Assembly: GCA_963768165.1 (NCBI GenBank)
Contig: CAVYHJ010000002.1
Span: forward strand, 195,283 to 259,282
From: an uncultured bacterium
GTDB lineage: Bacteria; UBP4; UBA4092
Reading direction: 5' to 3'
DNA: 64,000 nt
This document shows positions 8,663 to 53,478 of the stretch, one piece after another (within the stretch, counting starts at the first letter, position 1; the number at the start of each line of letters is the position of its first letter). Below the pieces are notes generated by a model. The model saw nothing but the letters and a program-made list of their open reading frames with translations. It made no database searches and had not been told where the DNA came from. The translations under genes were made by a program, and so were the position numbers.

Positions 8663-10996
8663 CTACGGCTTTTTATCCTTATGCTCGATCTTCTTGAAAT
8701 CATCAAGGGTTTCAGTCTTTTTGTTGAGGTCGTTTTTTAACCGCTGTAACGCCACTCTCATGACATCTCCATGAGAAATCCGCTTACCGTCCATGCGGGA
8801 CTGTACGTCAAGCCATAGGCTGTGTACCATATTAATATCTTCCTCACTCAATTGAGGAGCATGGGCACCCAAATTAAAGACATATTCAAACCCGTCCATA
8901 TCCACGACTTTAAACTGGACTTGTCGACGGGGTTTTTGCGGGAGCCGTTCCCAAGCTTGGCCAATGAGCTTTTCCTGTTCCCGGGCGTTCATTTTGGCAG
9001 ATAGACCGGTCACGATTTCAGCGGAATCCAGCCGCACCGCCGTTTGCGCCAGCGCATCGAATATATTATTGGAAGGAACCACCAGCAGGTCTACATGTTT
9101 CCCGTGTTTTTCAGCCATATTGACCACCGCGGTAAATAGGCGTTGTTCGTAATCCCGGAATAAGTTTTCCTGGTACAGGTCTCGTTCCCCGCTATCCGGT
9201 CCGGTAAGTAAGCGTATGGTGGTAACTACCACATCCTGTGCCACAGTATCGGTTTCATCCAACATATGTTCCAAGTGAGCGAGGAGATTGTAATTATGTA
9301 CCGCCACTAAAATATTGCCCGGTCGGGTTTGTACGGATTCCAGGCTGACTTCATGTTCTTGCGAAAGATTAAATTGTTCCAGGGAAGATACGGATTTATC
9401 CACTCTTTTGTGATTAATGTATTCCGAAACCGCAAATACGGTATAAAAAATACAGGTAAAGGCAATCCCTGAAATCGTGGCGATTTCTTTGGTAAATATA
9501 TTCACGACAGCGATGAAAAGTAAAACAGACGTAATCAGGATAAGTCCAAACGGGATTTCCAAAGTACCAATATATAAATTCCCCGGGACTTTCCATTCCC
9601 GCGGTGATTTGTCCTTATAGCGCAATACCACCATCGCCAGCCCTTTGAAGGCAAAAGACCATACCACACCAAAGGCGTAGGCTTCACCGAGCATATAGAC
9701 GTCTCCATGAGAACCCACGATGGTTAATAGTTGCATAAAGACAATCAAATTGATCATCCGGTAAGTGGTGCCGTATTTTTTCTGCGGTTTTCTAAACCAG
9801 GACGTCAGCACACCGTCTTCACTCAGCCGGTTGAGTACGCCGTTCGACCCGACAATGGCGGTATTCACCGCGCCGGAAAGCATTAAAAATCCCACAAAGA
9901 CTACAAAGGCTTGGAATAATAAGCGTAACGACAGTGGGCCAATCATATACATCGAAAGACCCGATATTAAATTGTCAAAGTATTGCGGTCGTACCGAGTC
10001 CGGGATAATCATAGAAGCAAAAATGCTGACCAGGGAAGTGAATATCAGGGAATAAACAAAGATGACAAAGCCGGCGCGCATAAGGTTTTTATGTTTGGGA
10101 TATTCCAGTTCCCTGTTCACCTGCGCCAGGGATTCTTCTCCGCTCATGGCTAAAACCGCATGGCCAAATGCGATCATGATTCCCAGTACCCCCATCCACA
10201 TGCCGAGTCCCCCGCGCATTCCAAACCGGGTTTCAGGGGGCGGTGCACTTGGATCCGCGGGGACAGCGTTGGGAGTATGAGTTAATGGATAAAATGCTTT
10301 AGGGAATATTTTCGGCATCCATCCGATAGCATCTTTGCTATATTCCATATGGCTGGCGGTCGGGGGAGGGGGCATTTGAGTTATCCCTTTTTGGATAAGA
10401 GTCAGGCTGCACCAGAATATCATAATGACCACCATCACGGTAGTAATTTTCATTATTTGTAAAGCATCCGAGGACGATTCATGCATCCCCTGGATATTCC
10501 GCCACCAGAAATACAGGGTTATAAATATGGCGATTCCAGCGGAAATCAAGTTAATGACCGATTTATCGGGCTGCCAGGGATGGCCAAAATAGGTCATAGT
10601 TTGCGCCACCAGTCCTACAATATACTGTCCTGCCGACACACCTGAAATGGGTCCCGTGAGTACATAGTCAAACATCAGGGCAGACACACTGATTTTAGCG
10701 AGCGTCCCGCCCATGGCTTCTTTGACCACGCGGTACACCCCACCCCGGGTAAACATGGCACAGCTTTCAACATAGACTGCCCGCACGGCGTAACTGAATA
10801 ACATGACCCCCAAAACCAGCCAGGGAGCCGCCCGGCCTGCCGCTTCTTCCGCAATCCCACCGACATAAAATGCCGATGAGCCCAGGTCGTTTAAGACAAT
10901 AGCCGCCGCGCGCCAAAAGGAGATAAAGGACAACATCACGGTCGTCGCGATAACTACCCGGACTCGATTTTGTTGAGGTGTAGTAGTAGGTTCCAT
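8663..10996 (-). CDS. APC-superfamily transporter with about 300-aa C-terminal cytoplasmic (USP-like) domain; possible K+ or amino-acid importer
   Basis: About 12 predicted TM segments in the N-terminal 480 aa plus a soluble C-terminal domain; immediately preceded by riboswitch-like leader A. Confidence 0.7.
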   Translation of the reverse strand: MEPTTTPQQNRVRVVIATTVMLSFISFWRAAAIVLNDLGSSAFYVGGIAEEAAGRAAPWLVLGVMLFSYAVRAVYVESCAMFTRGGVYRVVKEAMGGTLAKISVSALMFDYVLTGPISGVSAGQYIVGLVAQTMTYFGHPWQPDKSVINLISAGIAIFITLYFWWRNIQGMHESSSDALQIMKITTVMVVIMIFWCSLTLIQKGITQMPPPPTASHMEYSKDAIGWMPKIFPKAFYPLTHTPNAVPADPSAPPPETRFGMRGGLGMWMGVLGIMIAFGHAVLAMSGEESLAQVNRELEYPKHKNLMRAGFVIFVYSLIFTSLVSIFASMIIPDSVRPQYFDNLISGLSMYMIGPLSLRLLFQAFVVFVGFLMLSGAVNTAIVGSNGVLNRLSEDGVLTSWFRKPQKKYGTTYRMINLIVFMQLLTIVGSHGDVYMLGEAYAFGVVWSFAFKGLAMVVLRYKDKSPREWKVPGNLYIGTLEIPFGLILITSVLLFIAVVNIFTKEIATISGIAFTCIFYTVFAVSEYINHKRVDKSVSSLEQFNLSQEHEVSLESVQTRPGNILVAVHNYNLLAHLEHMLDETDTVAQDVVVTTIRLLTGPDSGERDLYQENLFRDYEQRLFTAVVNMAEKHGKHVDLLVVPSNNIFDALAQTAVRLDSAEIVTGLSAKMNAREQEKLIGQAWERLPQKPRRQVQFKVVDMDGFEYVFNLGAHAPQLSEEDINMVHSLWLDVQSRMDGKRISHGDVMRVALQRLKNDLNKKTETLDDFKKIEHKDKKP

Positions 10997-11016: not shown

Positions 11017-11237
11017 ATAAAAAACGCTCGAAAGGCACGTTCCCTTCGAGCGGTTATTGCCACCACTAAAAGCGCTATGTTAGAAACGTCCACTGTCTCT
11101 CCCACGCCTGCGGGGTTAGCTGTTGGGTTCGGGTTGAAAAGTAACCCTGCGCGTTTCCGCGATTCACCCCCTGACATCGGTTCCCCCGTCTCTTGCGAGC
11201 TCGGCGATCTTTCGTGGGATTCTTATTCCAAATTTAA
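11017..11237 (-). promoter_or_regulatory. Candidate c-di-AMP (ydaO/kimA-type) riboswitch leader, copy A, with intrinsic terminator
   Basis: Conserved core shared with three other copies (RNA sense ...GGGGGAACC...GGGGUGAAUC-CGCG-GAAA-CGCG-CAGGGUUACUUUUCAACCCGAACCC..CAGCUAACC..GCAGGCGUGGG); 3' hairpin CGCUCGAAGG/CUUUCGAGCG plus U-run at 11017-11055; extended -10 TGATATAAT at 11245-11253; start codon 10996 about 20 nt past the U-run. Confidence 0.6.
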
Positions 11238-11986: not shown

Positions 11987-12080
11987 GGGCTAAAGCCCTG
12001 AGAACCGTGCACTAAAGTGCCGTAGAAGAAACAATCCTTCTACCCTGCTTTAGCAGAGGGTTACTGGACTTTAGTCCAAA
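11987..12080. repeat. Interspersed double-hairpin palindromic repeat (family R1), copy 1
   Basis: Halves GGGCTAAAGCCC..GCACTAAAGTGCCGTAGAAGAA and CTTCTACCC..GCTTTAGC..GGACTTTAGTCC; same family at 14083-14186 and 25597-25686. Confidence 0.6.
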
Positions 12081-12183
12081 CCAACCCCATCCCCTCTTTT
12101 CCCCCTCCCGCCAGCGCCGGATAAACAGGTAATTTAAATAGGTGTATAATAACCCTCACTGAAATATTGAGGTATAGATAGAG

Positions 12184-12663
12184 ATGAAAAAAACAGTTTC
12201 AATAATTTTGAATATACTTTCTTTGCTATCAATGTTTTTCAGTATTTTATGGACTTTTGTAATGTCATTGTTGTTATTCCGATGTTTACTTTATCCTGTA
12301 AAGTTTTCTGTGCAAAAAGATTCCCTAACTAATGGAATTTTTTATCGTTTTGTAGCTGCATATCCTATCTCTTTTTGCTTGATTGGAATTATTGCATTTC
12401 TCGGCCAGTTAGTCGTGTCTTTTGGGGTTTTAAAAAGGTTTAAATGGGGACTGTATGGGGTAAGAATTATTCTATTTCTTTTTCTCATAGCTGATATAAT
12501 CTATGATTATAGCAATCTAACCTATATTGATATTAACATTGGATTGATTGTATTCTTGTTAATTTTCTTTTATCTCCCCATCGTCAAAAGCCTGTTTGAA
12601 AAGCAACCCCCGATTCCCAGCGAACCCACCCCCTCTTTCCCCCCTCCCGCCAGTGCCGGATAA
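12184..12663 (+). CDS. Polytopic membrane protein with Pro-rich C-terminal tail, tandem paralog 1
   Basis: 159 aa; C-terminus FLPIVKSLFEKQPPIPSEPTPSFPPPASAG nearly identical to next gene; 5' region (CCCTCCCGCCAG..TAATAACCCTCACTGAA..ATAGATAGAGATG) also duplicated. Confidence 0.45.
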   Translation: MKKTVSIILNILSLLSMFFSILWTFVMSLLLFRCLLYPVKFSVQKDSLTNGIFYRFVAAYPISFCLIGIIAFLGQLVVSFGVLKRFKWGLYGVRIILFLFLIADIIYDYSNLTYIDINIGLIVFLLIFFYLPIVKSLFEKQPPIPSEPTPSFPPPASAG

Positions 12664-12722: not shown

Positions 12723-13268
12723 ATGAAAAAAGCTATAACCATAATAATGTACCTTCTCGCTGTCCTTTGTATCTTGTTCAGTGTGATAGGTCTTTATCAA
12801 GGAATATCCTTTTTATCTGTATTATTCTTTCTCCCAGATTCAGTTTGGTATGAAATAAAAAGCGTGGGGATTCACTCGTCCTCATCAGTCATACACACGC
12901 AGAGTGTCTTACAATGTTTTCTAGATATTATTTTTGGTATCATTCAGTTTTTTGGATTTATAGGGGTATTACAGAAAAAGAAATGGGGATTGTATTGTGT
13001 TCAGGTAGTCTTGATTACTAGTTTTATTGACTTGATTCTGACAATGATAGATTATTACTCGGTAATTCAACCGATGATGAAACAACAAGGGGGCAATGTT
13101 CATTTGTTGATAGGCGGAAATCAATGGAAATTTATAAGGGGATTTGTCTTGGAAATCATCCTCTTGGTTTTCTTTTTCCTCCCCATCGTCAAAAGCCTGT
13201 TTGAAAAGCAACCCCCGATTTCCAGCGAACCCGTCCCCTCTTTCCCCCCTCCCGCCAGCGTCGGATAA
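12723..13268 (+). CDS. Polytopic membrane protein with Pro-rich C-terminal tail, tandem paralog 2
   Basis: 181 aa; same conserved C-terminal tail and duplicated 5' region. Confidence 0.45.
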   Translation: MKKAITIIMYLLAVLCILFSVIGLYQGISFLSVLFFLPDSVWYEIKSVGIHSSSSVIHTQSVLQCFLDIIFGIIQFFGFIGVLQKKKWGLYCVQVVLITSFIDLILTMIDYYSVIQPMMKQQGGNVHLLIGGNQWKFIRGFVLEIILLVFFFLPIVKSLFEKQPPISSEPVPSFPPPASVG

Positions 13269-13460: not shown

Positions 13461-13937
13461 TTAATGGGTTAGCAGATAATTGGAAACAAACAAGTTATGC
13501 CCGGAATCTTGCAATCCTTTGGCTTTTTCATCCCAAATTGCCTTTTGTGCGGGAGACAGAGACTGCCAAGCTGATTGGGCAGGGCTCATTTTCCCTCTTT
13601 GTGCCTGTTGGAGAGGGGTGCGGGGGTTCGCCCCTTCTTCGTAATCCCGGGCATACTGTGTCCCGGTTTTCCCGACGACTTGATAGGTTAATCCCTTGAA
13701 TTTCCCATGCGCCTGCAAAGAATCCAACGGGAATTGTTCGACAATGAGAACCACATCCCCGCCCAGAACCGATTGGGGAATGGAACCCAATATCCTTTTA
13801 ACTTTGGCAGGTTTCACCGTAATCCCTTCCGGTTGAAACGCAGATTGCAACGCTTTCAGTAATATTTTTTCGACCTCTTTCCCACGAAACACCTGAATCA
13901 CCTTGTTTTTAGGTTTGCGATATATATTCGTTGGCAT
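13461..13937 (-). CDS. Hypothetical protein
   Basis: 158-aa ORF with GGAGG-like RBS; no recognisable motif. Confidence 0.35.
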   Translation of the reverse strand: MPTNIYRKPKNKVIQVFRGKEVEKILLKALQSAFQPEGITVKPAKVKRILGSIPQSVLGGDVVLIVEQFPLDSLQAHGKFKGLTYQVVGKTGTQYARDYEEGANPRTPLQQAQRGKMSPAQSAWQSLSPAQKAIWDEKAKGLQDSGHNLFVSNYLLTH

Positions 13938-14030
13938 ACATGAATCCTCCTATTCTTAGTATAATACAATCCCACTTTTCCCACACATTATTTTACCTCT
14001 AAATTGATAGGTAGTAAAGAGAGGGAAGGT

Positions 14031-14050: not shown

Positions 14051-14082
14051 CTATCGGATGTAGAATTCATTATGAAGTAAAT

Positions 14083-14186
14083 CTTCTACCCGGCTTTAGC
14101 CGAGGGTTTCTGGACTTTAGTCCAAACATTTCAGAAGAGAATGGGCTAAAGCCCAAAGAACCGTACACTAAAGTGTCGTAGAAGAA
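14083..14186. repeat. Interspersed double-hairpin palindromic repeat (family R1), copy 2
   Basis: CTTCTACCCGGCTTTAGCCGAGGG..GGACTTTAGTCC...GGGCTAAAGCCC..ACACTAAAGTGTCGTAGAAGAA. Confidence 0.6.
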
Positions 14187-14195
14187 TAGATTTAT

Positions 14196-14894
14196 TTATT
14201 CTTTGGCTCCGGCATCTTTCAGGAGTTTTACGATGTCGTCATATTTCTTATATGTCGCTATTGATAAGGCAGTTTTACCATCATTGGTTTTCGTATTGAT
14301 ATTGGCTCCTTTATCTAGCAAGGCTTTCATGGTATCCATACGACCACCACGAACCGCCCACATCAAAGCAGTATAACCAATAACATCTTTCGCATTGACC
14401 TCCGCGCCTTTCGCTAATAAGGCTTGTACGGTCTCGTTATGTCCTACAACTGCCGCATTCATCAAGGCGGTCATACCGTACTTGTTTTTCGCATTGACCT
14501 CCGCACCTTTCGCTAATAAAGCGTTCACGATATTCGTTTGGCCCCACCATGCCGCTGACATCAAGGCGGTGTTACCAAACTTATTTTTTACATTAACATC
14601 GGCTCCTTTCGCCAATAAAGCTTGCACGGTATCTGTATGACCATTTTCTTCTGCTAACATCAAAGCGGACACACCTGTACTATCTTTCACATTCGGGTTC
14701 ATCCCCGCATCCAAATATAATTTTATAACATCGGTTTTGCTATGTCCTGCACATTTAAAAAACTCATCTTCGCTATAGGTAATCTTCATTTGCGCCAGTT
14801 CATTACGCGCTTCTTGCGGGGTTTTGGCGAAGGAAGGGAATACCAGGAACAAAAATAGTACAAGAGAGAGACACGGTAATGGTTTCAATTTCAT
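14196..14894 (-). CDS. Secreted ankyrin-repeat protein
   Basis: Signal peptide then repeated TALM.AA..GH...V..LL.KGA.VNAK units; AAGGAG RBS. Confidence 0.8.
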   Translation of the reverse strand: MKLKPLPCLSLVLFLFLVFPSFAKTPQEARNELAQMKITYSEDEFFKCAGHSKTDVIKLYLDAGMNPNVKDSTGVSALMLAEENGHTDTVQALLAKGADVNVKNKFGNTALMSAAWWGQTNIVNALLAKGAEVNAKNKYGMTALMNAAVVGHNETVQALLAKGAEVNAKDVIGYTALMWAVRGGRMDTMKALLDKGANINTKTNDGKTALSIATYKKYDDIVKLLKDAGAKE

Positions 14895-14976
14895 TATAAT
14901 TGGTACTCCTTTTTCCTCTAGAATGTATGGCGTCGGGAAAAAGAAGAGCGTTTATTCCCGACGCAGTTTTATTCTG

Positions 14977-15783
14977 TTATTCTTTCGCCCCGGCACTCTT
15001 GAGGAGTTTTACGACGTCGGGATGGTTCTCTTTTGCCGCGTCCATCAAAGCAGTATGACCTTCATTATCTTTCGCATTGACTTGAGCACCTTTTTTTAAT
15101 AAGACTTTAACGGTCTCTGCATGACCTGTGACTGCCGCAAACATCAAGGCAGTCCTGCCATTATTGATTTTCGCATTGACTTCAGCACCTTCTTTTAATA
15201 AGACTTGCACAGTCTCCGTATGACCATTCACTGCCGCTAATATCAATGCGGTCACACCACCCTTGTTTTTTGCATTGACATCCGCCCCTTTTGCTAATAA
15301 GGTTTGAACGATCTTCGTATAACCAAACTCTGCCGCAAGCATCAAGGCGTTTTTACCTTGTTTAGTTATCGCATCAACTTTTGCCCCTTTTGCTAAAAGG
15401 GCTTGCAACGTATCTGTACGACCACTAAGTGCCGCCCATGTCAATGGGGTCCAGTCATCGTTTGATTTCGCATTAATATCAGCACCTTTCGCCAATAAGG
15501 CTTGTAGAGTCTCAATATTATTATGAAATGCCGCAGCCATCAAGGGGGTTCGACCATTATCGTCTTTCAAATTCGGATTCATCCCAGCATCTAAAAACAA
15601 TCTCACAGCGTCAGTTTTGCCGTGTTGTGCACAAAAGAGAAATTCATCTTCGCTATAGGTTATTTTCATTTGCGCCAGTTCATTGCGCGCTTCTTGCGGG
15701 GTTTTGGCGAAGGAGGGGAATACCAGAAACGAAAATAGTAAAAGAGAGAGGCTTAATAATGGATTGAATTTCATCATACTTGG
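14977..15783 (-). CDS. Secreted ankyrin-repeat protein (paralog)
   Basis: Start placed at internal MMKFNPLLSL (AAGGAG RBS) rather than the ORF-track start; same N-terminal FLVFPSFAKTPQEARNELAQMKITYSEDEF as neighbour; at least six ankyrin units. Confidence 0.8.
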   Translation of the reverse strand, partial: PSMMKFNPLLSLSLLLFSFLVFPSFAKTPQEARNELAQMKITYSEDEFLFCAQHGKTDAVRLFLDAGMNPNLKDDNGRTPLMAAAFHNNIETLQALLAKGADINAKSNDDWTPLTWAALSGRTDTLQALLAKGAKVDAITKQGKNALMLAAEFGYTKIVQTLLAKGADVNAKNKGGVTALILAAVNGHTETVQVLLKEGAEVNAKINNGRTALMFAAVTGHAETVKVLLKKGAQVNAKDNEGHTALMDAAKENHPDVVKLLKSAGAKE

Positions 15784-16064
15784 TACTCCTTTTTCCCAAA
15801 GAATGAGAGAGTTTTTTATTACCGATAGCATACTCCCTTCTAGAACCCAGAGTCAAGTTAAAGAGTGGAAGGAACGGGAGAAACGGAGAATGGGCGAGAG
15901 AGCGAAATAGAATCAGGAATGAAGGAAAAGGTCAAATATGTTACCTGCTCCAGCAAAGAGATACCCATTATTTTGCCTATAAATAGACAGGTAGAAAAGA
16001 GTTGAAAAGATAACAGATTGTGCTATAATTTTTCTTAGTCAAAAACGGTCGGGAGGACACTTCG

Positions 16065-17670
16065 ATGAAAACACGTAAACGCATTATTGTTATTTCACAT
16101 TTTCTGTTAGGACTCGCTACGATGATTCTGATTTTACCCGGGAGCGGGTTCGGGAACCAATTGGTGTATTCCACGTATCTGGGCGGGACGAGCGATCATG
16201 CGGAATCATTAGGGATTGCGATTGATACGGCTGGGAATATCTATATTACCGGATTTACCAAAGCACCGAATTTTCCCGTCACAGCATCCGGCTACGATAC
16301 AGTGTATGAAGGCGCGGGAGAGCATGTGTTTGTAAGCAAAATCAATCCGAGTTTATCGGGTGTCTCGTCTTTAGTCTATTCCACTTTTCTTGGCGGAGAG
16401 GGATATGAACTTGCCCGGGGCATTGCGGTGGATAGCGCGGGGAATATCTATGTAACCGGCTTTACCAACTCCTCTACCTTTCCAGTAACCGCGAATGCCT
16501 ACGATACAGGATTACATGGCGCGGAGTACGCGGCTTATCTCAGCGAAATCAATCCGAGTTTATCGGGTGCTTCTTCGTTGGTGTATTCCACGTATCTGGG
16601 TTCGGGTTACGCGGGAGGCTATGGCATTGCCCTTGGTAAATCCGGCAATGCCTATATTACCGGCTCTCAAAGCTATTACACGTTCCCGGTAACTGCCAAT
16701 GCCGTGGATACTGTGGGTACCGGCAATGATGTCGCTTTTATCTCTGAATTTAATACCAGTTTATCGGGTGTCTCCTCCCTGGTCTATTCGACTTTGCTGG
16801 GACCCAAGGACACTTTCGCCGCATATGCCAATGCCATCGCCGTAGATACTTCAGGGAAAATTTACGTAACCGGATTGACGGACTCGTCCACCTTACTTAC
16901 CACAACCAATGCGTTTAATACGACTTTTCATGGGTTACAGGACACGTTTGTGAGTGTGATAAATCCTAATGTGGCGGGATTGGCGGGGTTGGTGTATTCG
17001 ACCCTGCTGGGAGGAAGCCCCGCTAATTACGAGGATTCCGGCAATGGAATTACGGTAGACAAAGCGGGTATTGCCTATGTCACCGGTGTAACAGAAGACA
17101 CAATCTTCCCGGTGACCGCCATTGCCTATGACACCGTATTCAAAGGAAACGGAAATGTATTCCTGTGCAAAATCAATCCGTCCTTATCGGGGGTCTCGTC
17201 TCTGGTCTATTCGACATTATTAGGCGGCAGTGGGGGCGAGGGAGGGGAAGCCATTGCCATTGATACTGCCGAGAAAGTCTATGTGACAGGGTACACATTT
17301 CCCGGTCACGGCAGACGGGTATGATACGACATTCAACGGAACTCAGGATGTTTTTGTGACTGTATTGAATCCCAACTCATTGGGAACCTCCGCTTTGATT
17401 TATTCGACCTTTCTGGGAGGCAATAGCTATAGCGATGGACAGGGAATTGCTCAAGACAATAATAACAAAGTGTATGTCACAGGATATACCTATGCATCGA
17501 ATTTCCCCATCACCTCCAATGCTGTCAGCACTTCTTTACGAGGGACTGCAGGCAGTAACTATGATGCCTTTGCCACGGTGCTGAATATCACTCCTCCGGT
17601 AGCGGTCAATGATTGGATGCTGTATGCAGAGCCGGAAGTGGCGCAAGGGAGTGAGTCGGGAAAGAGGTAA
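16065..17670 (+). pseudogene. SBBP (beta-propeller) repeat protein disrupted by frameshift/deletion
   Basis: Repeating LVYSTYLGG...IYVTGFT...FPVTA.AYDT units; frame 0 stops at 17324 (VTGYTFPGHGRRV*) while the repeat continues in frame +1 from 17299 (FPVTADGYDTTFNG...). Confidence 0.55.
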
Positions 17671-22083: not shown

Positions 22084-22326
22084 ATCAAATTCCTTTTCAT
22101 TTCCAAACGCAGATTATAGCATTAGTGGAGGGCGGCGGGAATAGTAAAGTGTCGAGTCGGGAGACTCGACCTATCGGATAGAGGAATGGTCAAAACCAAT
22201 TTCTTACGAATATCATAAGTCGTATTGATTTAAACAAAAAGTAAGCGTAATATAATGGGGTTCAGACCATGGAAATTATCATTCACCCACGATATGATAC
22301 CGGGGATTTATTCAGGAGGGCAGGTC

Positions 22327-22956
22327 ATGAAACGCTTGATTTGTTTGTTAACAATCACTCTTAGTATAGGTTTTGTAACGCAATTATGTTGGGGTTACTC
22401 CTCATCGGAATTGATAATTCCGCCATCCGCCAGAGTACCCGGGTCTGTATCCAGCCAAGATACTTCCGCAAATACGCCCCCAATACGAAACTATGTTAGC
22501 GAACTTCCATCTTCTTTTAAAAAGGATGCCAATGAAATTTATAATTTTTCCGTTAAAAGTCTGGAAGGTAAATATACCCACATGGGGGACTATAAAGGGA
22601 AAGTCATCGTGGTCAATTTCTGGGAATCCACCTGTTATCCAAGTTATCTGGAATTGTTCAAAATCGAAAGCTTGGCTAATTTTGACAAGAGAAAAGAAGT
22701 GGTCATTATATGTGTCGCCGAGGATGACGAGAAACTCCTACTTCATTATAAGGACAAAATCCCCCAGCTTTCATTCCCCATCTTTACTTATAACCAGTTT
22801 GATATACCGGATGCGCTGGAACATGAATATGTCCCCACCACGTTTATCATCAACCAGAACGGTAAAATTATACTGGCAGAATCCGGTATCATTGAAGGTT
22901 TCCAACTATGGGAAGAAATCCAAAAACTCCTTCCCCACAAACCAAACACCAAGTAA
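22327..22956 (+). CDS. Thioredoxin-fold (TlpA/redoxin-like) protein with single-Cys site
   Basis: Start set at MKRLICLL (AGGAGGG RBS); VVNFWESTCYPS aligns with the WxxWCxxC redoxin site but the second Cys is Ser. Confidence 0.5.
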   Translation: MKRLICLLTITLSIGFVTQLCWGYSSSELIIPPSARVPGSVSSQDTSANTPPIRNYVSELPSSFKKDANEIYNFSVKSLEGKYTHMGDYKGKVIVVNFWESTCYPSYLELFKIESLANFDKRKEVVIICVAEDDEKLLLHYKDKIPQLSFPIFTYNQFDIPDALEHEYVPTTFIINQNGKIILAESGIIEGFQLWEEIQKLLPHKPNTK

Positions 22957-23022: not shown

Positions 23023-25002
23023 CTATTTGGTTTTGGCGGAGTAGTTGTAGATAGCCAGCGAGATGACGCTGAGGAAGGATTCGAGGAGATAGTCCTGTTC
23101 TTGCGAGAGGAACTGAGAATCCTGCGGACGACCGATAGCGAGGACGCCGACAATATCGTTTTTGACGTTCAAGGGGATAAAGCGCCACGCGGAAGAGGAG
23201 AGAGTCTGGGTCTCCCGACCGGCAAGTTCCTTGTGCTCAAATACCCATAAAGCGATAGTCATTTCGTGACTATTAAATTTCACAGAGTCACCGGTTTGGG
23301 AGCGGATAGTGAGTTTACCGGTTTTGTCGGGAAGCAGGAGCGCCGAGTCACAGGCGAACATTTCGGAAATGTCCGAACTGATTCTATCGAGCAAATCAAT
23401 AAACCCGATAGCGTGATACAAATCCTGGCTGAATTCATTGAGCAACGAAATGTACCGCACCTGGGTGCGGGAAGATTCCGATTGCCGTTTGAGACGGTCG
23501 GCAAGGAGACTTGTCACAATGCCGACTAAAAACATGACAAAGAACGTGGGCAGATAACTCATATCGCTGACTGTAAAAGTGAAAATCGGCGGAACAAAAA
23601 AGAAATCGAAACAAAGCACGCTCAACAGGGATGCGACCAGACCGCCGATGAGTCCGCGATAAATCCCTGACAGAATCACGGGAATGATGAATAAAAGGGC
23701 AACATTCGTGAGACCGATGTAAGAATGAAGAGGAAAGCAAATGAGAGTGGTTGCGCCCACGATGGCAAGGCTCATAAGATAGGAACGCCAATCAAGAACG
23801 AGATTGCTTCGTCGCTGCGCTCCTCGCAATGACAAAGGTTGTGGTGACGATTCGCCACCGACTACCAAGACTTGAATAGGATTGCTTTTATCAATAATCT
23901 GGTTCAAGAGTGACCCGCGTATCATTCTACGAAACCGGGATTGGCCGGAGAAACCAACAATAATCAACGAGGCATTTTTTGAACGGGCAAACCGCACGAC
24001 TTCATCGGCAGGCTGGTTGCTGGAAAGACGGACAATTTTCCCGCCCAATTCTTTGGCGAGATTAAAATTCTTCTCCAACTGTTTAGCCCTTTGCGGGTCG
24101 AGCGTAGTTTGCACCTGTGGTTCGACATAGACCGCAAACCAATCGGCTTTTAAATCTTCCGCCAACCGATGTGCCACGCGGACGGGTTGTTCGGACAAGG
24201 GACTCGGACTGATACATACCATAATCCGGGTGCCGACGGGCCAGGGACCTTTAATGCCCTGCAATTGCATGTAAGAGAGCATGGCATCGTCCACGTGCTT
24301 GGCGGTATAGCGCAGGGCTAATTCGCGGAGCGCGAGCAAAGTGCCTTCTTTAAAATAATTCTGGGAGGCGAGTTTCGCCATATTGGCCATGTAGACTTTA
24401 CCTTCGGTTAAGCGCTGGAGAAGTTCTTCCACGGGAAGGTCTACGAGAGCAATTTTATCCGCCAGTTCCAGAATGCGGTCGGGGACGGTTTCCTTCACTT
24501 CAATTTTGGTAATTTGATAAATAATGTCATTGACACTTTCAATATGCTGGATGTTCAAGGTGGTGTAGACACTGATACCGTTATTGAGGAGTTCTTCAAT
24601 ATCTTGAAACCGTTTTACATGGCGTGACCCGGGGACATTGGTATGCGCCAATTCATCCACCAGAACATATTTGGGTTTGCGCTTAAGAATATAGTCCAGG
24701 TTAAACTCATCCAAGACCATACCCTGATATTCTATTTTCAGGAGGGGAGAACGTTCCAATCCAAAAATCAACTGTTCGGTTTCGGCACGACCATGGGTTT
24801 CGACAATGCCGATAATGATATCTTCGCCCTTTTGTTTGATCGCCTGGGCTTCCTGCAACATGCGGTAGGTCTTGCCGACACCGGCCACGTACCCTAAGAA
24901 TATTTTAAGAAATCCCCGGGTGCGATGCTGCTGTTCCTGTTCTTTATTAAACAGGTTCAGCAGTTGATCCGGATCGGGGCGATTTTGATTCTGTTCAACC
25001 AT
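23023..25002 (-). CDS. kdpD: KdpD sensor protein lacking histidine-kinase domains
   Basis: N-terminal P-loop GVGKTY, USP-like region, 4-TM block and GAF-like C-terminus; ends at 659 aa with no H-box or HATPase motifs; directly downstream of kdpC. Confidence 0.75.
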   Translation of the reverse strand: MVEQNQNRPDPDQLLNLFNKEQEQQHRTRGFLKIFLGYVAGVGKTYRMLQEAQAIKQKGEDIIIGIVETHGRAETEQLIFGLERSPLLKIEYQGMVLDEFNLDYILKRKPKYVLVDELAHTNVPGSRHVKRFQDIEELLNNGISVYTTLNIQHIESVNDIIYQITKIEVKETVPDRILELADKIALVDLPVEELLQRLTEGKVYMANMAKLASQNYFKEGTLLALRELALRYTAKHVDDAMLSYMQLQGIKGPWPVGTRIMVCISPSPLSEQPVRVAHRLAEDLKADWFAVYVEPQVQTTLDPQRAKQLEKNFNLAKELGGKIVRLSSNQPADEVVRFARSKNASLIIVGFSGQSRFRRMIRGSLLNQIIDKSNPIQVLVVGGESSPQPLSLRGAQRRSNLVLDWRSYLMSLAIVGATTLICFPLHSYIGLTNVALLFIIPVILSGIYRGLIGGLVASLLSVLCFDFFFVPPIFTFTVSDMSYLPTFFVMFLVGIVTSLLADRLKRQSESSRTQVRYISLLNEFSQDLYHAIGFIDLLDRISSDISEMFACDSALLLPDKTGKLTIRSQTGDSVKFNSHEMTIALWVFEHKELAGRETQTLSSSAWRFIPLNVKNDIVGVLAIGRPQDSQFLSQEQDYLLESFLSVISLAIYNYSAKTK

Positions 25003-25012: not shown

Positions 25013-25579
25013 TTATTTTTTAAGGACATCCAGTGCCATATTCAATTTTAATACATTGACAACCGGATCGCCGAACAACCCCAAGAGAGGTTTTTCGGTA
25101 TATTTTTGAACCAAATCAGTTACGACATCATCCTGCAAACTGCGAGATTTTGCAACTCTTGGCACTTGAAGCAAGGCGGCATCCAGACTTATATGGGGAT
25201 CGAGACCGCTGGCCGAGGATGTGACCAAGTCCACGGGAACAGGCGCATCGGGTGGCAAATTATTTTCCGCACGAACCGCGCGTGCCGTGGAATCAATCTG
25301 GCTAATCAATTTCTGGTTGGTGGGACCGAAATTGGTCGCATTGGAATTGGTGGCATCGAAATTAGCCGCCGAGGGACGCCCGTGGAAATATTCGGGTTTG
25401 GTGAAGGATTGTTCTATTAATTCGGAACCAACAACCTTGTTGTTCACTGTCGCCAGACTGCCATTGGCCTTGTGTGGGAAAAGTATCTGTGCGATTCCGG
25501 TCATTGCCAACGGGTATATCAACCCGGTGAGAATGGTGAATACGATTAAACTCAAGATGGAAATTTTTAACTGTTTCAT
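25013..25579 (-). CDS. kdpC: K+-transporting ATPase subunit KdpC (operon 1)
   Basis: 188 aa, N-terminal TM, conserved GRPSAANFD and SGLDPHIS segments. Confidence 0.85.
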   Translation of the reverse strand: MKQLKISILSLIVFTILTGLIYPLAMTGIAQILFPHKANGSLATVNNKVVGSELIEQSFTKPEYFHGRPSAANFDATNSNATNFGPTNQKLISQIDSTARAVRAENNLPPDAPVPVDLVTSSASGLDPHISLDAALLQVPRVAKSRSLQDDVVTDLVQKYTEKPLLGLFGDPVVNVLKLNMALDVLKK

Positions 25580-25596
25580 TTGTATAATCTCCTTTT

Positions 25597-25686
25597 TTAA
25601 TAACTTCTACCCGACTTTAGTCGAGGGTTCGGGGACTTCAGTCCCAATTTAAGGGCTAAAGCCCTAAGAACCGTGGACTAAAGTCC
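25597..25686. repeat. Interspersed double-hairpin palindromic repeat (family R1), copy 3
   Basis: CTTCTACCCGACTTTAGTCGAGGG..GGACTTCAGTCC..GGGCTAAAGCCC..GGACTAAAGTCCCGTAGAAGAA between kdpC and kdpB. Confidence 0.6.
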
Positions 25687-25702
25687 CGTAGAAGAAAATA
25701 TG

Positions 25703-27739
25703 TTATGCCCAACCTAATACAACGATGAGCATGTCAATTAGTTTGATACCGATGAAGGGAAGAAGCACTCCGCCCAACCCATATACCAGTAAATTCATTT
25801 TCAAGAACGAGGAAACGGAAACGGCACGTAATTTGACGCCCCTCAATGCCAACGGGATTAAGAACAAAATAATAATCGCGTTGAAAATGACGGCGGACAA
25901 AATCGCACTCCCAGGATTATTTAACCTCATCACATTCAGAATATTCAACTGCGGATAAGCGACCGCAAACATTGCCGGAACGATGGCGAAATATTTCGAG
26001 ACATCGTTGGCAATACTAAAAGTAGTAAGCGCGCCACGCGTGATAAGGATTTGTTTTCCGACTTCCACAATATCGAGAAGTTTCGTGGGATTGGAATCCA
26101 AATCAATCATATTGGATGCTTCCCGCGCCACCTGCGTGCCTGCATTCATAGCGACCGCGACATCGGCTTGCGCGAGAGCGGGTGCGTCATTAGTCCCGTC
26201 TCCAATCATCGCGACAAGGTTACCGTCCTCTTGTGCCTTGCGAATTAATGCCAATTTGGTTTCGGGTTTGGCCTGAGCAACGAAATCATCCAGCCCGGCT
26301 TCCGCGGCAATCGAAGCAGCGGTGAGCGGGTTATCGCCGGTAATCATGGTGGATTTGATACCCATTTCACGGAGTTGCGCGAGACGAGCTTTAATGCCTT
26401 GTTTCAGAACGTCTTTGAGACGAATCACGCCAAGAACTCTTTTCCCGTCAGAAACGACCAAAGGCGTATTACCTTGTTTGGCGAACCCTTCCACGATGTC
26501 CTTGACTCCGGCAGGGATTGTGGCATTGGACTGTTTCAGAAATTCTTCAATCGCGTCCAAGGAACCCTTGCGGATTTTTTTGCCATCAATATCAATCCCG
26601 CTCATGCGTGTTTCGGGAGTGAAAGGTACGAACACGGCACCTTCGGGAGCACGGATATCGCTTCCCTTGATACCTTTTTCGGTTTTACAGAGGGTTACAA
26701 TACTTCTGCCTTCGGGAGTTTCATCGGATAGTGAGGATAACAAGGCACAGTCCACCAATTCTGCTTTTTCAACTCCAGCAGAAGGAACCAAATCGGTTGC
26801 CATACGATTGCCGAGAGTGATGGTACCCGTCTTATCGAGCAAGACGATATTGACATCGCCTGCCGCTTCTACCGCACGACCGCTCAGAGCGATGACGTTG
26901 TGTTGTAATAGTCTATCCATCCCTGCGATACCGATAGCGGGAAGTAAACCGCCAATGGTGGTCGGCATGAGGCATACCAAGAGAGAAATCAATATCGGGA
27001 CGGTGGTCGCGATACCCAAATAATTGGCATAGGTGGGCAGGACGATAACGACGATTAGGAACAACACTGTGATGCCGACAAGGAGAATTTCTAAAGCGAT
27101 TTCATTGGGTGTCTTTTGACGTTTCGCGCCTTCGACCATAGAAATCATGCTATCGAGGAATGTCTCACCGGCATTCGCCGTGATACGGATTTTGATATGT
27201 CCCGATAATAGTTTGGTTCCACCAGTCACGCCACTGCGGTCACCACCGGATTCCCGAATCACGGGAGCGGATTCACCAGTGATGGCAGATTCGTCCACAA
27301 GAGCGACGCCTTCGATAATTTCTCCATCACCGGGAATGACTTCCCCTTCAATAACCAGAATCAAATCGCCTTTGCGAAGATCCAAGGCGGATACTTTTTC
27401 TTTCGCTCCACTTTCCAATATTTTAAGAGCAAAGAGTTCGCTGCGTGCTTTCCGCAAAGATTCCGCACGTGCTTTCCCTTGAATTTCCGCCAAGGCTTCC
27501 GAGAAGGTGGCGAAAAGAACGGTCACCCAGAGCCAAAGGGTAATTTGCAAATTAAACCCGAAACTGGCATGATGGGTGATATTGATTACCGTGATGATAG
27601 TGGTAATCACAGCGCCGATTTCAACGACCAACATTACGAGATTGCGCCATAATAAAAAGGGATTTAATTTTTTAATAGCTTCCTGCAATCCCTTGAACAG
27701 AAAGTCCGCTTGAAATATACTTCGTTTCGTTTGTGCCAT
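25703..27739 (-). CDS. kdpB: K+-transporting P-type ATPase subunit KdpB (operon 1)
   Basis: P-type motifs [21 protein letters not shown]; 678 aa. Confidence 0.95.
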
Positions 27740-27806
27740 ATATTATCTCCTTAGAACCACCACCCCCTTCCCCCTCCTTAATTAAGGAGGGGGACTGAGG
27801 GAGTGA

Positions 27807-29507
27807 TTAAAATGTTTTTCCTTGCAACATGAATAAATGTTCCAACACGGGACCGAGGGTGAATGCCGGGAAATAGGTCAATGCGCCGACAATAAAGACT
27901 ACGCAAACCAGCATAGCGACAAATAACCAGCCGGTGGTTGGAAATGTAGCCAAACTGGTAGGAACAATCTTTTTCCTGACCAGTGCTCCGGCAATAGCCA
28001 GTCCTGGAATGAGGGTGGAAAATCGTCCAACCAACATGGTGGCGCCACCGGTTAAATTATAAAACACGGTATTGGCGTTAAGTCCGGCAAACGCGGAACC
28101 GTTATTCCCACCATAGGATAAAAAGGCATATAACACTTCCGACCAACCGTGGGCGGAGGGATTATTCATGCTGGACAATCCGGTGGCGGTAATCATAGCG
28201 AATGCCGCAAAGATTTTAAGAACAATGGGCGCTGCCAAAATTGCAATCACCGTCCAAATCATTTCATAAGGACCAAGTTTCTTGCCAAGATATTCAGGGG
28301 TACGTCCGATCATCAATCCAGCAATAAACATAGTGGCGAAGACATAGAAAAACATTCCGATGAGTCCGACACCCAATCCGCCGAAGATGACTTCCCCAGT
28401 GCATAAGTTAAACATATAGACTAGACCCGTGAGGGGGAGCATACTGTCGTGCATAGAGTTCACGGAGCCGTTGGAAGTGACGGTGGTCATGTGTCCCCAT
28501 GCAGCAGAATTGATAATCCCAAAACGGGCTTCTTTGCCTTCCATATTCCCCCCAACCAGATGCAACTTATCGAAAAAGGGGTTACCCTGGGTTTCGCTAT
28601 AGAATACTACGGCCAAACCTATAATAAATAGGGTTAACATGGAATAAAAGATGGCTTTGCCTTGACGGCTATCGCGTACCATAAAACCAAACATGAACAC
28701 TTGCGCGGTGGAAATGAAGAGAATTGCCATCATTTCAAAAATATTAGACAAGCCAGTGGCATTCTCAAAGGGATGCGCGGAGTTGACGTTGAAGAAACCG
28801 CCGCCATTAGTTCCCAACTGTTTAATGGCAATCTGTGAAGCTGCAGGACCAACGGCAATGGTTTGCGCACCGCCTTCCAATGTCTTTACTACCTCATACG
28901 GATGTAAGGTTTGAACGACACCTTGAGACACCAAAATGAGGGTAAGGATAATGCTCAATGGCAATAATATATATATTACAGAACGGGTCATATCCACCCA
29001 GTAATTGCCTATCTTGTCGGTATCTTTGCGAATAAATCCGCGAATCATGGCGACCATGACTGCCATCCCCATCGCGGGGGTAACGAAATTATGTACCGTG
29101 AGTCCCAGCATTTGGGTGAGATAACTCAGGGTACTTTCCCCGCCATACGCCTGCCAGTTGGTATTGGTGACAAAAGAGATGGCGGTATTTAATGCCAAAT
29201 CCCAACGGACGGCAGCGAATTTTTGCGGATTCAAAGGCAGATGCCCTTGAAGAAGCTGCAATAAAAATAAAGCGGCGAGAAATATTACATTGAACCAGAA
29301 TACCGCCCAGGCATAAGTTTTCCAGTTCATTTCTTCGGATTCATTGACGCCGCAGAGACGGTATATTCCACGCTCAAGAGGTTTTAAGAACCCGCTGAGA
29401 AATGTCCATTCTCCGTTATACACCCGGAACATATATTTCCCTGTCGGGATGGACAGGAAAAACATGATTGCCAAGGCAACAACAACTACAATCATATCTA
29501 TTAACAT
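27807..29507 (-). CDS. kdpA: K+-transporting ATPase subunit KdpA (operon 1)
   Basis: 566-aa polytopic protein with KdpA-typical GTNGGGFF selectivity-filter-like motifs. Confidence 0.9.
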   Translation of the reverse strand: MLIDMIVVVVALAIMFFLSIPTGKYMFRVYNGEWTFLSGFLKPLERGIYRLCGVNESEEMNWKTYAWAVFWFNVIFLAALFLLQLLQGHLPLNPQKFAAVRWDLALNTAISFVTNTNWQAYGGESTLSYLTQMLGLTVHNFVTPAMGMAVMVAMIRGFIRKDTDKIGNYWVDMTRSVIYILLPLSIILTLILVSQGVVQTLHPYEVVKTLEGGAQTIAVGPAASQIAIKQLGTNGGGFFNVNSAHPFENATGLSNIFEMMAILFISTAQVFMFGFMVRDSRQGKAIFYSMLTLFIIGLAVVFYSETQGNPFFDKLHLVGGNMEGKEARFGIINSAAWGHMTTVTSNGSVNSMHDSMLPLTGLVYMFNLCTGEVIFGGLGVGLIGMFFYVFATMFIAGLMIGRTPEYLGKKLGPYEMIWTVIAILAAPIVLKIFAAFAMITATGLSSMNNPSAHGWSEVLYAFLSYGGNNGSAFAGLNANTVFYNLTGGATMLVGRFSTLIPGLAIAGALVRKKIVPTSLATFPTTGWLFVAMLVCVVFIVGALTYFPAFTLGPVLEHLFMLQGKTF

Positions 29508-29737: not shown

Positions 29738-29896
29738 TAAATAAAAAACCCACTCACTCTTCCACGCCTACGAGGTTAGCTGACGGGCTCGGGTTGAAAA
29801 GTAACCCTACGCTTTCGCGATTAGCCCCAACTTCCGGTTCCCCCGTATCTTTCGAATTCGGCGAACTTAAGTGGTAATACTGCTATATTTTTCTAC
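29738..29896 (-). promoter_or_regulatory. Candidate c-di-AMP (ydaO/kimA-type) riboswitch leader, copy B
   Basis: Same conserved core as copies A, C, D; internal GNRA-capped hairpin CGC-GAAA-GCG; 3' tail GAGUGAGUGGGUUUUUUAU. Confidence 0.6.
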
Positions 29897-30716: not shown

Positions 30717-30729
30717 TTTTAGGACCTCC

Positions 30730-32793: not shown

Positions 32794-32811
32794 GACATCG
32801 TCATGACTCTA

Positions 32812-35427: not shown

Positions 35428-35590
35428 TCAATAAAAAACCCACTCACTCTTCCACGCCTGCGAGGTTAGCTGACGGGCTCGGGTTGAAAAGTAACCCTAC
35501 ACCTTGCGGTGATTCGCCCCAACTTTCGGTTCCCCCGCCTTTTTCAAGCTCGGCGAACTTAAGTGGTACTATTAAAATTCTATGTTATTT
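35428..35590 (-). promoter_or_regulatory. Candidate c-di-AMP (ydaO/kimA-type) riboswitch leader, copy C
   Basis: Conserved core; internal hairpin CACC-GCAA-GGUG covaries with GCGC-GCAA-GCGC (D), CGC-GAAA-GCG (B) and CGCG-GAAA-CGCG (A). Confidence 0.6.
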
Positions 35591-53437: not shown

Positions 53438-53478
53438 TATATACTCATTATTATAAAATTCTAGTAGAATGTCTCTAG

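What the first reader, a model, noticed from the sequence alone, without database searches (positions are those of the whole stretch)
14196..15783. Tandem pair of secreted ankyrin-repeat proteins
Both paralogs carry signal peptides and an identical N-terminal segment followed by five or six ankyrin units. Secreted ankyrin proteins are uncommon in free-living bacteria and often mediate host or partner interaction.
Basis: partly seen in the sequence, partly recalled or inferred. Interest (0 to 1): 0.4.

Follow-up and report, generated by a model that had tools for sequence, protein, structure and literature searches.

The report
Tandem exported ankyrin-repeat protein genes
Two neighbouring genes encode ankyrin-repeat proteins with export signals, but they belong to a large family of exported ankyrin proteins common in environmental bacteria, so the pair is real and fairly ordinary, with an unknown binding partner.

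Summary
Two minus-strand genes, 14196-14894 (232 aa) and 14977-15774/15777 (265/266 aa), are 57% identical paralogs with very strong ankyrin HMM matches. Each starts with a Sec-type signal peptide (Lys-containing n-region, roughly 15-residue hydrophobic core, Pro-Ser-Phe-Ala before Lys24). A 30-residue stretch is identical in both. A confident model (pLDDT 92) shows a capping helix plus six repeats in A, and register implies seven in B.

The same start module (signal peptide or lipoprotein signal, then the "PEEARxELAQMxIxYsExxF…LFLDAGMNPN" cap) occurs in dozens of proteins listed from soil, sediment and subsurface metagenomes. These include MAGs labelled Acidobacteriota, Sumerlaeota, Deltaproteobacteria and Verrucomicrobiota (Chthoniobacterales). 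Exported ankyrin proteins are therefore not rare in such bacteria.

The source genome encodes BamA, LpxC and LpxD, so a Sec signal most simply delivers the proteins to the periplasm, not outside the cell. No host, phage or secretion-system context and no conserved partner gene was found. The paralogs differ mainly at the canonical target-binding positions.

The most likely reading is two periplasmic protein binders with different specificities, working like Bd3460, Tli or AnkB. The target is unknown. I rate this a new member of a known kind, of low interest.

The parts
14196..14894 (-). ANK-A gene: 232 aa. Signal peptide residues 1-23, capping helix 26-35, six 33-residue ankyrin units (residues 36-232).
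   Evidence: ORF. Pfam Ank_2 E = 4e-43. AlphaFold pLDDT 92.4 with six helix pairs. 33-residue register.
14826..14894 (-). Signal-peptide coding part of ANK-A (MKLKPLPCLSLVLFLFLVFPSFA, predicted cleavage before K24).
   Evidence: Hydrophobicity and the -3/-1 rule. Low pLDDT in the model. It evolves faster (74% identical) than the next 22 residues (100%). Relatives have a lipoprotein signal at the same place.
14691..14825 (-). Conserved N-terminal cap of ANK-A (residues 24-68): helix PQEARNELAQ plus a degenerate first ankyrin unit ending LDAGMNPN.
   Evidence: For residues 24-45, dN = 0 and dS about 0.43 between the paralogs. pLDDT about 97. The same motif is found across relatives and recurs internally in fused proteins.
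14977..15777 (-). ANK-B gene: 266 aa from the ATG at 15777, or 265 aa from the ATG at 15774, which is homologous to the ANK-A start. Signal peptide, cap, then seven 33-residue units.
   Evidence: ORF. Pfam Ank_2 E = 2e-74. One extra 33-residue unit relative to A.
15706..15774 (-). Signal-peptide coding part of ANK-B (MKFNPLLSLSLLLFSFLVFPSFA).
15786..15792 (-). Shine-Dalgarno AAAGGAG of ANK-B, 8 nt before the first ATG and 11 nt before the second.
   Evidence: Read from the sequence. The block GGGAAAAAGGAG is conserved at DNA level upstream of ANK-A, ANK-B and the relatives in L016 and L001.
14906..14912 (-). Shine-Dalgarno AAAGGAG of ANK-A, 11 nt before the ATG.
14930..14964 (-). 10-bp GC-rich hairpin between the two genes (GCGTCGGGAA...TTCCCGACGC) with no U-tract. 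It may be a partial terminator or a processing or stabilising hairpin.
   Evidence: Fold of the 91-nt intergenic stretch that contains it: -20.2 kcal/mol, z = -2.9.
14074..14186 (-). About 115-nt imperfect palindrome made of mini-hairpins, immediately 3' of ANK-A. It is the likely end of the transcription unit and one of three copies of a repeated intergenic element in the window.
   Evidence: Repeat families D12 and D13. Fold of 14060-14200: -42.7 kcal/mol, z = -5.5. Terminator-like site at 14155-14142. Mini-hairpin count 11 against 0.66 expected.
15963..16001 (-). 39-nt motif about 190 nt upstream of ANK-B, repeated at 13983-14021 upstream of the next gene. Candidate shared promoter or operator.
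   Evidence: Repeat family D15, 85% identical. 2 matches against 0 expected. The downstream copy overlaps a weak sigma-70-like site at 14018-13990. Function not tested.

Best explanation
The two genes are old tandem duplicates encoding small ankyrin-repeat solenoids (six and seven repeats) that are exported by the Sec pathway.

Proposed sequence of events:
1. Each gene is translated from its own strong Shine-Dalgarno site.
2. The 23-residue signal peptide is most likely removed by signal peptidase I after Ser-Phe-Ala.
3. The mature protein starts at Lys-Thr-Pro-Gln-Glu-Ala-Arg and folds as a capping helix followed by stacked 33-residue repeats.
4. Because the organism has an outer membrane, the default destination is the periplasm.
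5. There the proteins act as stoichiometric protein binders.

The scaffold, both caps and the signal are conserved, while the concave-face positions that contact targets in ankyrin proteins have diverged. The two paralogs, and a third copy elsewhere on the same contig, should therefore bind different partners. By analogy with the characterised periplasmic ankyrin proteins, the likeliest activity is to sequester, inhibit or chaperone an envelope enzyme or an incoming one.

Shown here: gene structure, paralogy, the ankyrin fold, signal-peptide features, the selection pattern, family distribution, and genes for an outer membrane (BamA, LpxC, LpxD). Inferred: cleavage site, periplasmic location, binder function, and the nature of the partner.
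For: - Ankyrin HMM matches E = 1e-42 to 1e-74.
- AlphaFold model pLDDT 92.4, pTM 0.84, with a capping helix and six helix pairs. Best PDB fold matches are designed ankyrin binders at about 1 A rmsd.
- Signal-peptide features in both proteins. My crude rule flags 77 of 99 Met-start BamA sequences and only 3 of 118 KdpA sequences, so it has some specificity.
- Relatives carry a lipoprotein signal (…ACGK/SACG…) exactly where these proteins have FPSFA|K, directly before the same cap motif. In the fused two-module proteins P0241 and P0242, the second module has the cap but no hydrophobic segment. The hydrophobic stretch is therefore a targeting signal, not part of the domain.
- Between the paralogs, dN/dS is about 0.39 overall, so both are under purifying selection. 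In mature residues 24-45, dN = 0 while dS is about 0.43.
- Identity is 8/36 at the canonical binding positions against 112/161 at framework positions (Fisher p = 3e-7). Across 25 family repeats, the highest entropy sits at repeat positions 2, 3, 5, 10, 13 and 14.
- BamA, LpxD and LpxC-FabZ lie on a Logan contig (L001) that carries the third paralog P0002. BamA, P0002 and the window's KdpA are each listed with a longest contig of 1,257,976 bp.
- Precedents: Bd3460 has a signal peptide and six ankyrin repeats and inhibits DD-endopeptidases in the periplasm (PMC4686830). Tli is a periplasmic ankyrin lipoprotein that neutralises a phospholipase (bioRxiv 10.1101/2023.03.28.534661).
Against: - No dedicated signal-peptide predictor could be run, and cleavage and location are untested.
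- No partner gene is adjacent. The neighbours are a divergently transcribed SBBP beta-propeller protein and proteins of unknown function.
- No neighbour is conserved across the family. There is only lineage-specific synteny: a 700-aa protein with no Pfam match in six loci (two are Acidobacteriota MAGs, four are unlabelled metagenome contigs), and an M48 peptidase in three loci (two are Sumerlaeota MAGs). The inhibitor or chaperone role therefore rests on analogy only.
- Divergence at the binding positions is also what relaxed constraint alone would give.
- A type II secretion step or vesicle release to the outside cannot be excluded from a 64-kb window.
Confidence: 0.65

Rival explanations
1. 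One reading: truly secreted extracellular effectors that act on a eukaryotic host, grazer or partner. The models would be the signal-peptide-bearing ankyrin proteins of sponge symbionts and their phages, which reduce phagocytosis.
For: Signal peptide plus ankyrin repeats is the architecture described for the Ankyphage ANKp proteins (bioRxiv 10.1101/608950). Ankyrin proteins are statistically enriched in host-associated bacteria (PMC3932732). Several paralogs per genome would fit an effector repertoire.
Against: - No type II, IV or VI secretion genes and no phage or host-association markers in the window.
- No relative on IMG/VR viral contigs.
- Phage database hits are only generic ankyrin matches at 27-42% identity.
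- Dot/Icm effector models score 18-106 bits against cut-offs of 450-1400.
- Most relatives are lipoproteins, and those that carry an organism label come from environmental MAGs, which suits a cell-envelope role.
- The window is chromosomal and encodes polysaccharide hydrolases and transporters typical of a free-living heterotroph.
Confidence: 0.15
2. The hydrophobic N-terminus is an uncleaved signal anchor, so the ankyrin domain is tethered to the outer face of the inner membrane rather than soluble.
For: From my own recollection (not checked here), P. aeruginosa AnkB has been described as tethered by its N-terminal hydrophobic segment. Relatives are lipid-anchored lipoproteins, so anchoring at a membrane is the family norm.
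Against: The uninterrupted hydrophobic core is only about 15 residues. It is followed by Pro at -4 and small residues at -3 and -1, a typical signal peptidase I site. The sequence FPS(F/Y)A|KTPQEAR is conserved in the close relatives.
Confidence: 0.1
3. Cargo of a mobile element or prophage remnant (for example orphan immunity genes carried by transposons) rather than stable chromosomal genes.
For: The relative in L016 lies next to an IS110 transposase and directly downstream of an ORF matching phrog_19005 (E = 3e-22). The 66% relative in L018 follows an IS630-like transposase ORF (my reading of the translations, no family search run). The gene just downstream in the window (13461-13937) has two homologues in L016.
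Against: - No transposase, integrase or phage gene within 40 kb of the pair in the window. The nearest DDE transposase is at 56015-57274.
- GC content is about the same as the surroundings.
- dS of about 0.7 between the copies indicates long residence as a pair.
- No hits in viral contigs.
Confidence: 0.05

Closest known systems
Bd3460 of Bdellovibrio bacteriovorus (periplasmic ankyrin self-protection protein; PMC4686830)
   Same: Small (about 23 kDa), N-terminal signal peptide, six stacked ankyrin repeats, acts in the periplasm by binding and blocking enzymes. ANK-A has the same size, repeat number and predicted topology.
   Different: bd3460 sits next to its target DD-endopeptidase gene, and no such gene flanks the pair here. 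Bd3460 is not among the best 60 sequence matches or the best 50 fold matches in the PDB, which are consensus-type ankyrins. Similarity is therefore at the level of the ankyrin superfamily only.
Tli, ankyrin-repeat immunity lipoprotein against the T6SS phospholipase Tle of Enterobacter cloacae (bioRxiv 10.1101/2023.03.28.534661)
   Same: An exported ankyrin protein that must reach the periplasm to work. Many relatives of the window proteins are also lipoproteins.
   Different: The window proteins have a signal peptidase I site and no lipobox. There is no lipase, T6SS or CdiA gene in the neighbourhood.
AnkB of Pseudomonas aeruginosa (katB-ankB operon; cited through PMC94625 in PMC8466533; details from my own knowledge)
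   Same: An ankyrin protein with an N-terminal export signal that supports a periplasm-related function in a free-living or opportunistic bacterium.
   Different: No catalase gene is adjacent. The nearest redox gene, an AhpC/TSA-like protein at 22255-22956, is 6.4 kb away and separately transcribed.
Ankyphage ANKp and sponge-symbiont ankyrin proteins (bioRxiv 10.1101/608950)
   Same: Signal peptide followed by ankyrin repeats with no transmembrane domain.
   Different: Those are phage-encoded, in host-associated communities. Here there is no phage context and no viral-contig relative.
Designed and consensus ankyrin repeat proteins (DARPins)
   Same: The repeats are close to consensus, with top fold matches at 0.7-1.4 A rmsd and 36-40% identity. 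Variable positions coincide with the positions randomised in DARPin libraries, which I know from the literature.
   Different: The window proteins are natural, exported, and carry a distinct N-terminal cap motif (PQEARNELAQMKITYSEDEF) and a C-terminal cap (DIVKLLKxAGAKE).

Membership tests
Ankyrin-repeat superfamily (Pfam Ank / Ank_2) | HMM score above the curated gathering threshold | tested here: met
   Ank_2 scores 146 bits (A) and 247 bits (B) against a cut-off of 27.3. Ank scores 140 and 184 bits against 21.1.
Ankyrin-repeat superfamily (Pfam Ank / Ank_2) | 33-residue periodicity with stacked helix-turn-helix units | tested here: met
   Exact 33-residue register from residue 36. Six helix pairs in a pLDDT-92 model. 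Fold matches to ankyrin structures.
Sec / signal peptidase I substrates | Positively charged n-region, hydrophobic h-region of about 10-15 residues, small residues at -3 and -1 | tested here: met
   MKLK / M(M)K, then LSLVLFLFLVF / LSLSLLLFSFLVF, then P-S-F-A|K. This is a heuristic only. SignalP was not available.
Sec / signal peptidase I substrates | Experimental cleavage and export | not testable with these tools
   Needs fusion reporters, fractionation or N-terminal sequencing.
Bacterial lipoproteins (signal peptidase II) | Lipobox [LVI][ASTVI][GAS]C at the end of the signal | tested here: not met
   No Cys at the cleavage region in A or B. Most distant relatives do have a lipobox.
Tat substrates | Twin-arginine motif in the n-region | tested here: not met
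   No Arg in the first 23 residues of either protein.
Dot/Icm type IV ankyrin effectors (NCBIfam NF043019-NF043029) | Whole-protein score above the curated equivalog cut-off | tested here: not met
   Best scores are 18-106 bits against cut-offs of 450-1400. Only the repeats match.
Bd3460-type self-protection proteins | Gene adjacent to the DD-endopeptidase it inhibits | tested here: not met
   No peptidase within 20 kb. The neighbours are an SBBP protein and proteins of unknown function. The M23 peptidase at 37364-38023 is 21.5 kb away.
T6SS / CDI ankyrin immunity proteins (Tli type) | Gene immediately downstream of a toxin (lipase) gene, with a lipoprotein signal | tested here: not met
   No toxin or T6SS gene in the window. 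No lipobox.
Anti-phage defence ankyrin proteins (MzaA, PDC-M72A, PADLOC 'Ankyrin') | Full-length match including the non-ankyrin domains, with partner genes | tested here: not met
   Only the repeat region matches. MzaA scores 110-126 bits against a cut-off of 800. PADLOC matches cover repeat segments of longer profiles, and the neighbours have no PADLOC hit.
Phage-encoded secreted ankyrins (Ankyphage ANKp) | Location on a phage genome with hallmark phage genes | tested here: not met
   No PHROG hit for the neighbouring genes. No relative on viral contigs. Phage records give only generic matches.
Exported bacterial ankyrin family with the 'PEEARxELAQMxIxY…LFLDAGMNPN' cap (unnamed; defined here) | Signal peptide or lipobox followed within about 10 residues by the cap motif, then consensus-like repeats ending in a …IVKLLKxAGAK cap | tested here: met
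   Both window proteins fit. So do P0002, P0004, P0039 and P0104, the listed profile hits and 25 or more fetched loci.

The most novel reading that the evidence does not exclude
The family could be a natural 'binder library'. It would have a fixed signal, fixed caps and a fixed scaffold, with a hypervariable concave face and a variable repeat number: 166 to 325 aa in close relatives, fused double modules, and at least three copies on this contig. Such a set could serve a deep-branching uncultured two-membrane bacterium as a periplasmic repertoire of immunity or inhibitor proteins against incoming enzymes and toxins from competitors or predators. The association with transposases in relatives would fit acquisition of orphan immunity genes.
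Probability: 0.1. Interest if true: 0.5.

Novelty: new member of a known kind. Interest (0 to 1): 0.18.

Why it matters
The main value is corrective. A Sec signal on a bacterial ankyrin protein should not be read as a sign of host interaction. This start module is widespread in environmental bacteria, usually as a lipoprotein, which points to an envelope-internal role.

The family has no named model in Pfam, NCBIfam, PADLOC or PHROGs beyond the generic ankyrin repeats. Its conserved N-terminal cap motif could be used to define it. If the partners of such proteins were identified, they could reveal how poorly known bacterial lineages control periplasmic enzymes. Nothing in this window makes that question newly testable.

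Tried and rejected
- **Exact look-ups.** ANK-A and the long ORF of ANK-B are not on record in the gene-position collection. The best protein-collection hit is only 50-53% identical. Other proteins of the same contig are present at 100%. The source record could not be opened.
- **Taxonomy.** It remains unresolved.
  - Cluster look-ups gave no names.
  - The nearest named KdpA, at 77%, is labelled only 'MAG: bacterium'.
  - BamA has only ten relatives at 43% identity or more, none with a phylum name. The rest are 32% or below (Nitrospiraceae, Desulfobacterales, Geobacter).
It pointed to Sumerlaeota and Acidobacteriota relatives at 41-54% identity, too distant to classify the window.
  - A paper search for the run accessions found nothing.
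- **Named families.** NCBIfam, PADLOC and PHROGs gave only sub-threshold, repeat-only matches or nothing.
- **Phage link.** The phage database and IMG/VR gave no specific relatives.
- **Conserved partner.** I clustered all ORFs around 34 related loci and found only lineage-specific neighbours: a 700-aa protein without Pfam domains in six loci, and an M48 peptidase in three. Neither occurs in the window.
- **Downstream 158-aa gene (13461-13937).** It has no Pfam, NCBIfam, PHROG, PADLOC, PDB or phage match. The single-sequence AlphaFold model was unusable (pLDDT 46).
- **PDB searches.** Sequence and fold searches returned only consensus-type ankyrins and gave no functional lead.
Full report
**What is there.** The minus strand carries two co-oriented ORFs. 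ANK-A spans 14196-14894 (232 aa). ANK-B runs from 14977 to an ATG at 15777 or 15774 (266 or 265 aa), and its longest ORF reaches 15831.
- Both match the Pfam ankyrin models far above threshold: Ank_2 E = 4e-43 and 2e-74, Ank E = 3e-42 and 5e-56.
- They are 57% identical (E = 1e-86). The only gap is exactly 33 residues, one repeat.
- A conserved block GGGAAAAAGGAG lies 8-11 nt before the MK(L/F) start of both genes, and also before the close relatives in L016 and L001.
- This block explains why gene callers that chose upstream starts in relatives produce a spurious 'EKGEL' peptide. It supports the short starts.

**Signal peptide.** No dedicated predictor was available, so I checked the defining features directly.
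- Both proteins have a Lys-containing n-region and a hydrophobic core of about 15 residues (9-residue Kyte-Doolittle maximum 3.0-3.6).
- A helix-breaking Pro is followed by Ser at -3 and Ala at -1 before Lys24.
- There is no lipobox Cys, no twin arginine and no other hydrophobic segment.
- The same crude rule flags 77 of 99 Met-start BamA sequences and 3 of 118 KdpA sequences.
- Comparative evidence is stronger. In distant relatives, a lipoprotein signal (…ACGK, …SACG…) occupies exactly this position, immediately before the same cap motif.
- In two fused double-module proteins (P0241, P0242), the second module begins with the cap motif but has no hydrophobic stretch.
- The hydrophobic segment also evolves faster than what follows: 74% against 100% identity between the paralogs.

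**Fold and repeat count.**
- AlphaFold on a six-sequence alignment gives pLDDT 92.4 and pTM 0.84. Confidence is low only in residues 1-23.
- The model shows a helix at 26-35 and six helix pairs. A perfect 33-residue register from residue 36 gives six units in A and seven in B.
- The best PDB matches by sequence and by fold are consensus or designed ankyrin proteins at about 1 A rmsd.
- The 'identical N-terminal segment' is therefore the end of the signal peptide plus a structured N-terminal cap. It is not a separate domain.

**Evolution of the pair.**
- Codon-level comparison gives dS of about 0.70 and dN of about 0.27 overall, so the duplication is old and both copies are under purifying selection.
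- In mature residues 24-45, dN = 0 while dS is about 0.43. This indicates constraint on the protein sequence rather than very recent gene conversion.
- Identity at the six canonical target-contact positions of each repeat is 8/36, against 112/161 elsewhere (Fisher p = 3e-7).
- Across 25 repeats of the close family, entropy peaks at repeat positions 2, 3, 5, 10, 13 and 14. These are essentially the positions randomised in designed ankyrin libraries, as I know from the literature.
- This pattern fits paralogs with different binding specificities. Relaxed constraint at surface positions would look similar.

**The family.**
- Close relatives share the signal, the cap and the C-terminal …IVKLLKxAGAKE but differ in repeat number: P0002 (202 aa), P0004 (325 aa), P0039 (a 185-aa record that ends within a repeat, probably truncated), P0104 (166 aa) and L018 (66% identical).
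- P0002 is listed with a longest contig of 1,257,976 bp. So are a 100%-identical copy of the window's KdpA and a BamA. The genome therefore has at least three paralogs.
- A profile of the first 72 residues finds 3479 representatives (clusters at 50% identity) at E<=1e-3 and 412 at E<=1e-10. Many of them match only the generic ankyrin part.
- Among the listed hits that begin with Met, 83 of 136 have a predicted signal or lipobox, and 49 of those also have the cap motif.
- Loci with this architecture come from MAGs labelled Acidobacteriota, Sumerlaeota, Deltaproteobacteria, Abyssobacteria and Chthoniobacterales, and from metagenome contigs of unknown source.
- Tandem pairs recur in L006 and L009, and fused pairs occur in P0241 and P0242.

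**Organism and context.**
- The window is ordinary chromosome. It holds two kdpABC operons plus kdpD, peptide deformylase, three GH44 glycosidases, ABC transporters, a sigma-54 two-component pair and LemA.
- A Logan contig from the same genome (L001) carries BamA, OmpH, LpxD and an LpxC-FabZ fusion, so the cell has an outer membrane.
- BamA has only ten relatives at 43% identity or more, and the rest are at 32% or below. None carries a phylum label. The lineage is deep and unnamed in the sources I could reach.
- Next to the pair are a divergently transcribed SBBP beta-propeller protein, a 158-aa protein of unknown function and two small paralogous membrane proteins.
- No peptidase, lipase, catalase, secretion system, phage or defence gene is adjacent.

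**How it most likely works.**
- Each protein is exported through Sec and most likely cleaved after Ala23.
- It then folds in the periplasm into a capped six- or seven-repeat solenoid that binds another protein on its concave face, with a different partner for each paralog.
- The characterised periplasmic ankyrin proteins all work this way. Bd3460 blocks DD-endopeptidases (PMC4686830). Tli neutralises a phospholipase and must be periplasmic to do so (bioRxiv 10.1101/2023.03.28.534661). AnkB supports catalase KatB (from memory; the operon is cited in PMC8466533).
- In each of those cases the partner is encoded next door. That is not so here, and clustering ORFs around 34 related loci found only lineage-specific neighbours. 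The target therefore stays unknown, and the inhibitor or chaperone role is an inference by analogy.

**Rivals.**
Nothing here supports it. There are no viral-contig relatives, only generic phage matches and far sub-threshold scores for type IV effector models. The family is largely made of lipoproteins, and its labelled members come from environmental MAGs.
- An uncleaved signal anchor is possible but disfavoured by the short core and the good cleavage site.
- A mobile-element origin is hinted at in relatives: IS110 and a phrog_19005 ORF in L016, and an IS630-like ORF in L018. It is not supported in the window.

**Verdict.** The significance attached to it is overstated. This is a new member of a known kind, an exported bacterial ankyrin binder, belonging to a widespread but unnamed family with a recognisable N-terminal cap motif. 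Interest is low.

Noticed in passing
window 11090-11216, 29750-29873, 35440-35565, 38110-38234 (all minus strand): Four c-di-AMP (ydaO-type) riboswitches at 92-101 bits in 64 kb. They lie upstream of an amino-acid permease (8663-10996), the two kdpA genes (27807-29507 and 32812-34560) and an M23 peptidase (37364-38023). From my own knowledge, each target class is already known for this riboswitch, but the density is striking.
   Followed up: partly
window 25013-29507 and 30141-34560: Two complete kdpA-kdpB-kdpC operons in tandem (the KdpA copies are 75% identical), followed by kdpD at 23023-25002.
   Followed up: partly
window 11987-12081, 14074-14186, about 25612-25690: A repeated intergenic element: an imperfect palindrome of about 115 nt built from 12-nt mini-hairpins of the form NNNC-TAAA/TTTA-GNNN. 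There are 11 such hairpins against 0.66 expected. The copy after ANK-A folds at -42.7 kcal/mol, z = -5.5. It looks like a REP- or MITE-like element sitting between genes.
   Followed up: partly
window 13983-14021 and 15963-16001 (minus strand): A 39-nt motif, 85% identical in its two copies, lies upstream of ANK-B and of the next gene downstream (13461-13937). It gives 2 matches against 0 expected. It may be a shared promoter or operator.
   Followed up: no
window 13461-13937; L016 2294-2638 and 2734-3078: The 158-aa protein just downstream of the pair has two tandem homologues (34-38% identity) near the ankyrin relative P0004 in another genome. It has no match in any family library, the PDB or phage records, and its structure model failed.
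   Followed up: partly
window 12184-12663 and 12723-13268: Another tandem pair of paralogs: small multi-pass membrane proteins with no family match. Their last 110 nt are 90% identical, encoding …LPIVKSLFEKQPPI.SEP.PSFPPPAS.G.
   Followed up: no
window 48952-55965: Three consecutive glycoside hydrolase family 44 genes, two of them with He_PIG Ig-like domains. A DDE transposase follows at 56015-57274.
   Followed up: no
window 16065-17324 and 17356-17670: The SBBP beta-propeller gene divergent from ANK-B appears interrupted. The repeat pattern continues in a second ORF after a 31-nt gap. This could be a pseudogene, a sequencing error or two genes.
   Followed up: no
P0241 (436 aa), P0242 (450 aa): Relatives in which two complete ankyrin modules (cap, repeats, C-cap) are fused in one exported polypeptide through a Lys/Glu-rich linker. 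They are the single-gene equivalent of the tandem pair.
   Followed up: partly
L001 1448-3733 (same genome as the window): BamA of this organism has only ten relatives at 43% identity or more among 5.8 billion protein clusters. The rest are at 32% or below, and none has a phylum name. This suggests a deep, sparsely sampled lineage.
   Followed up: partly
L016 3826-4545: An uncalled 239-aa ORF directly upstream of the ankyrin relative P0004 matches phrog_19005 (unknown function, E = 3e-22). By eye it has Cys/His motifs reminiscent of a papain-like peptidase, but no Pfam match.
   Followed up: partly
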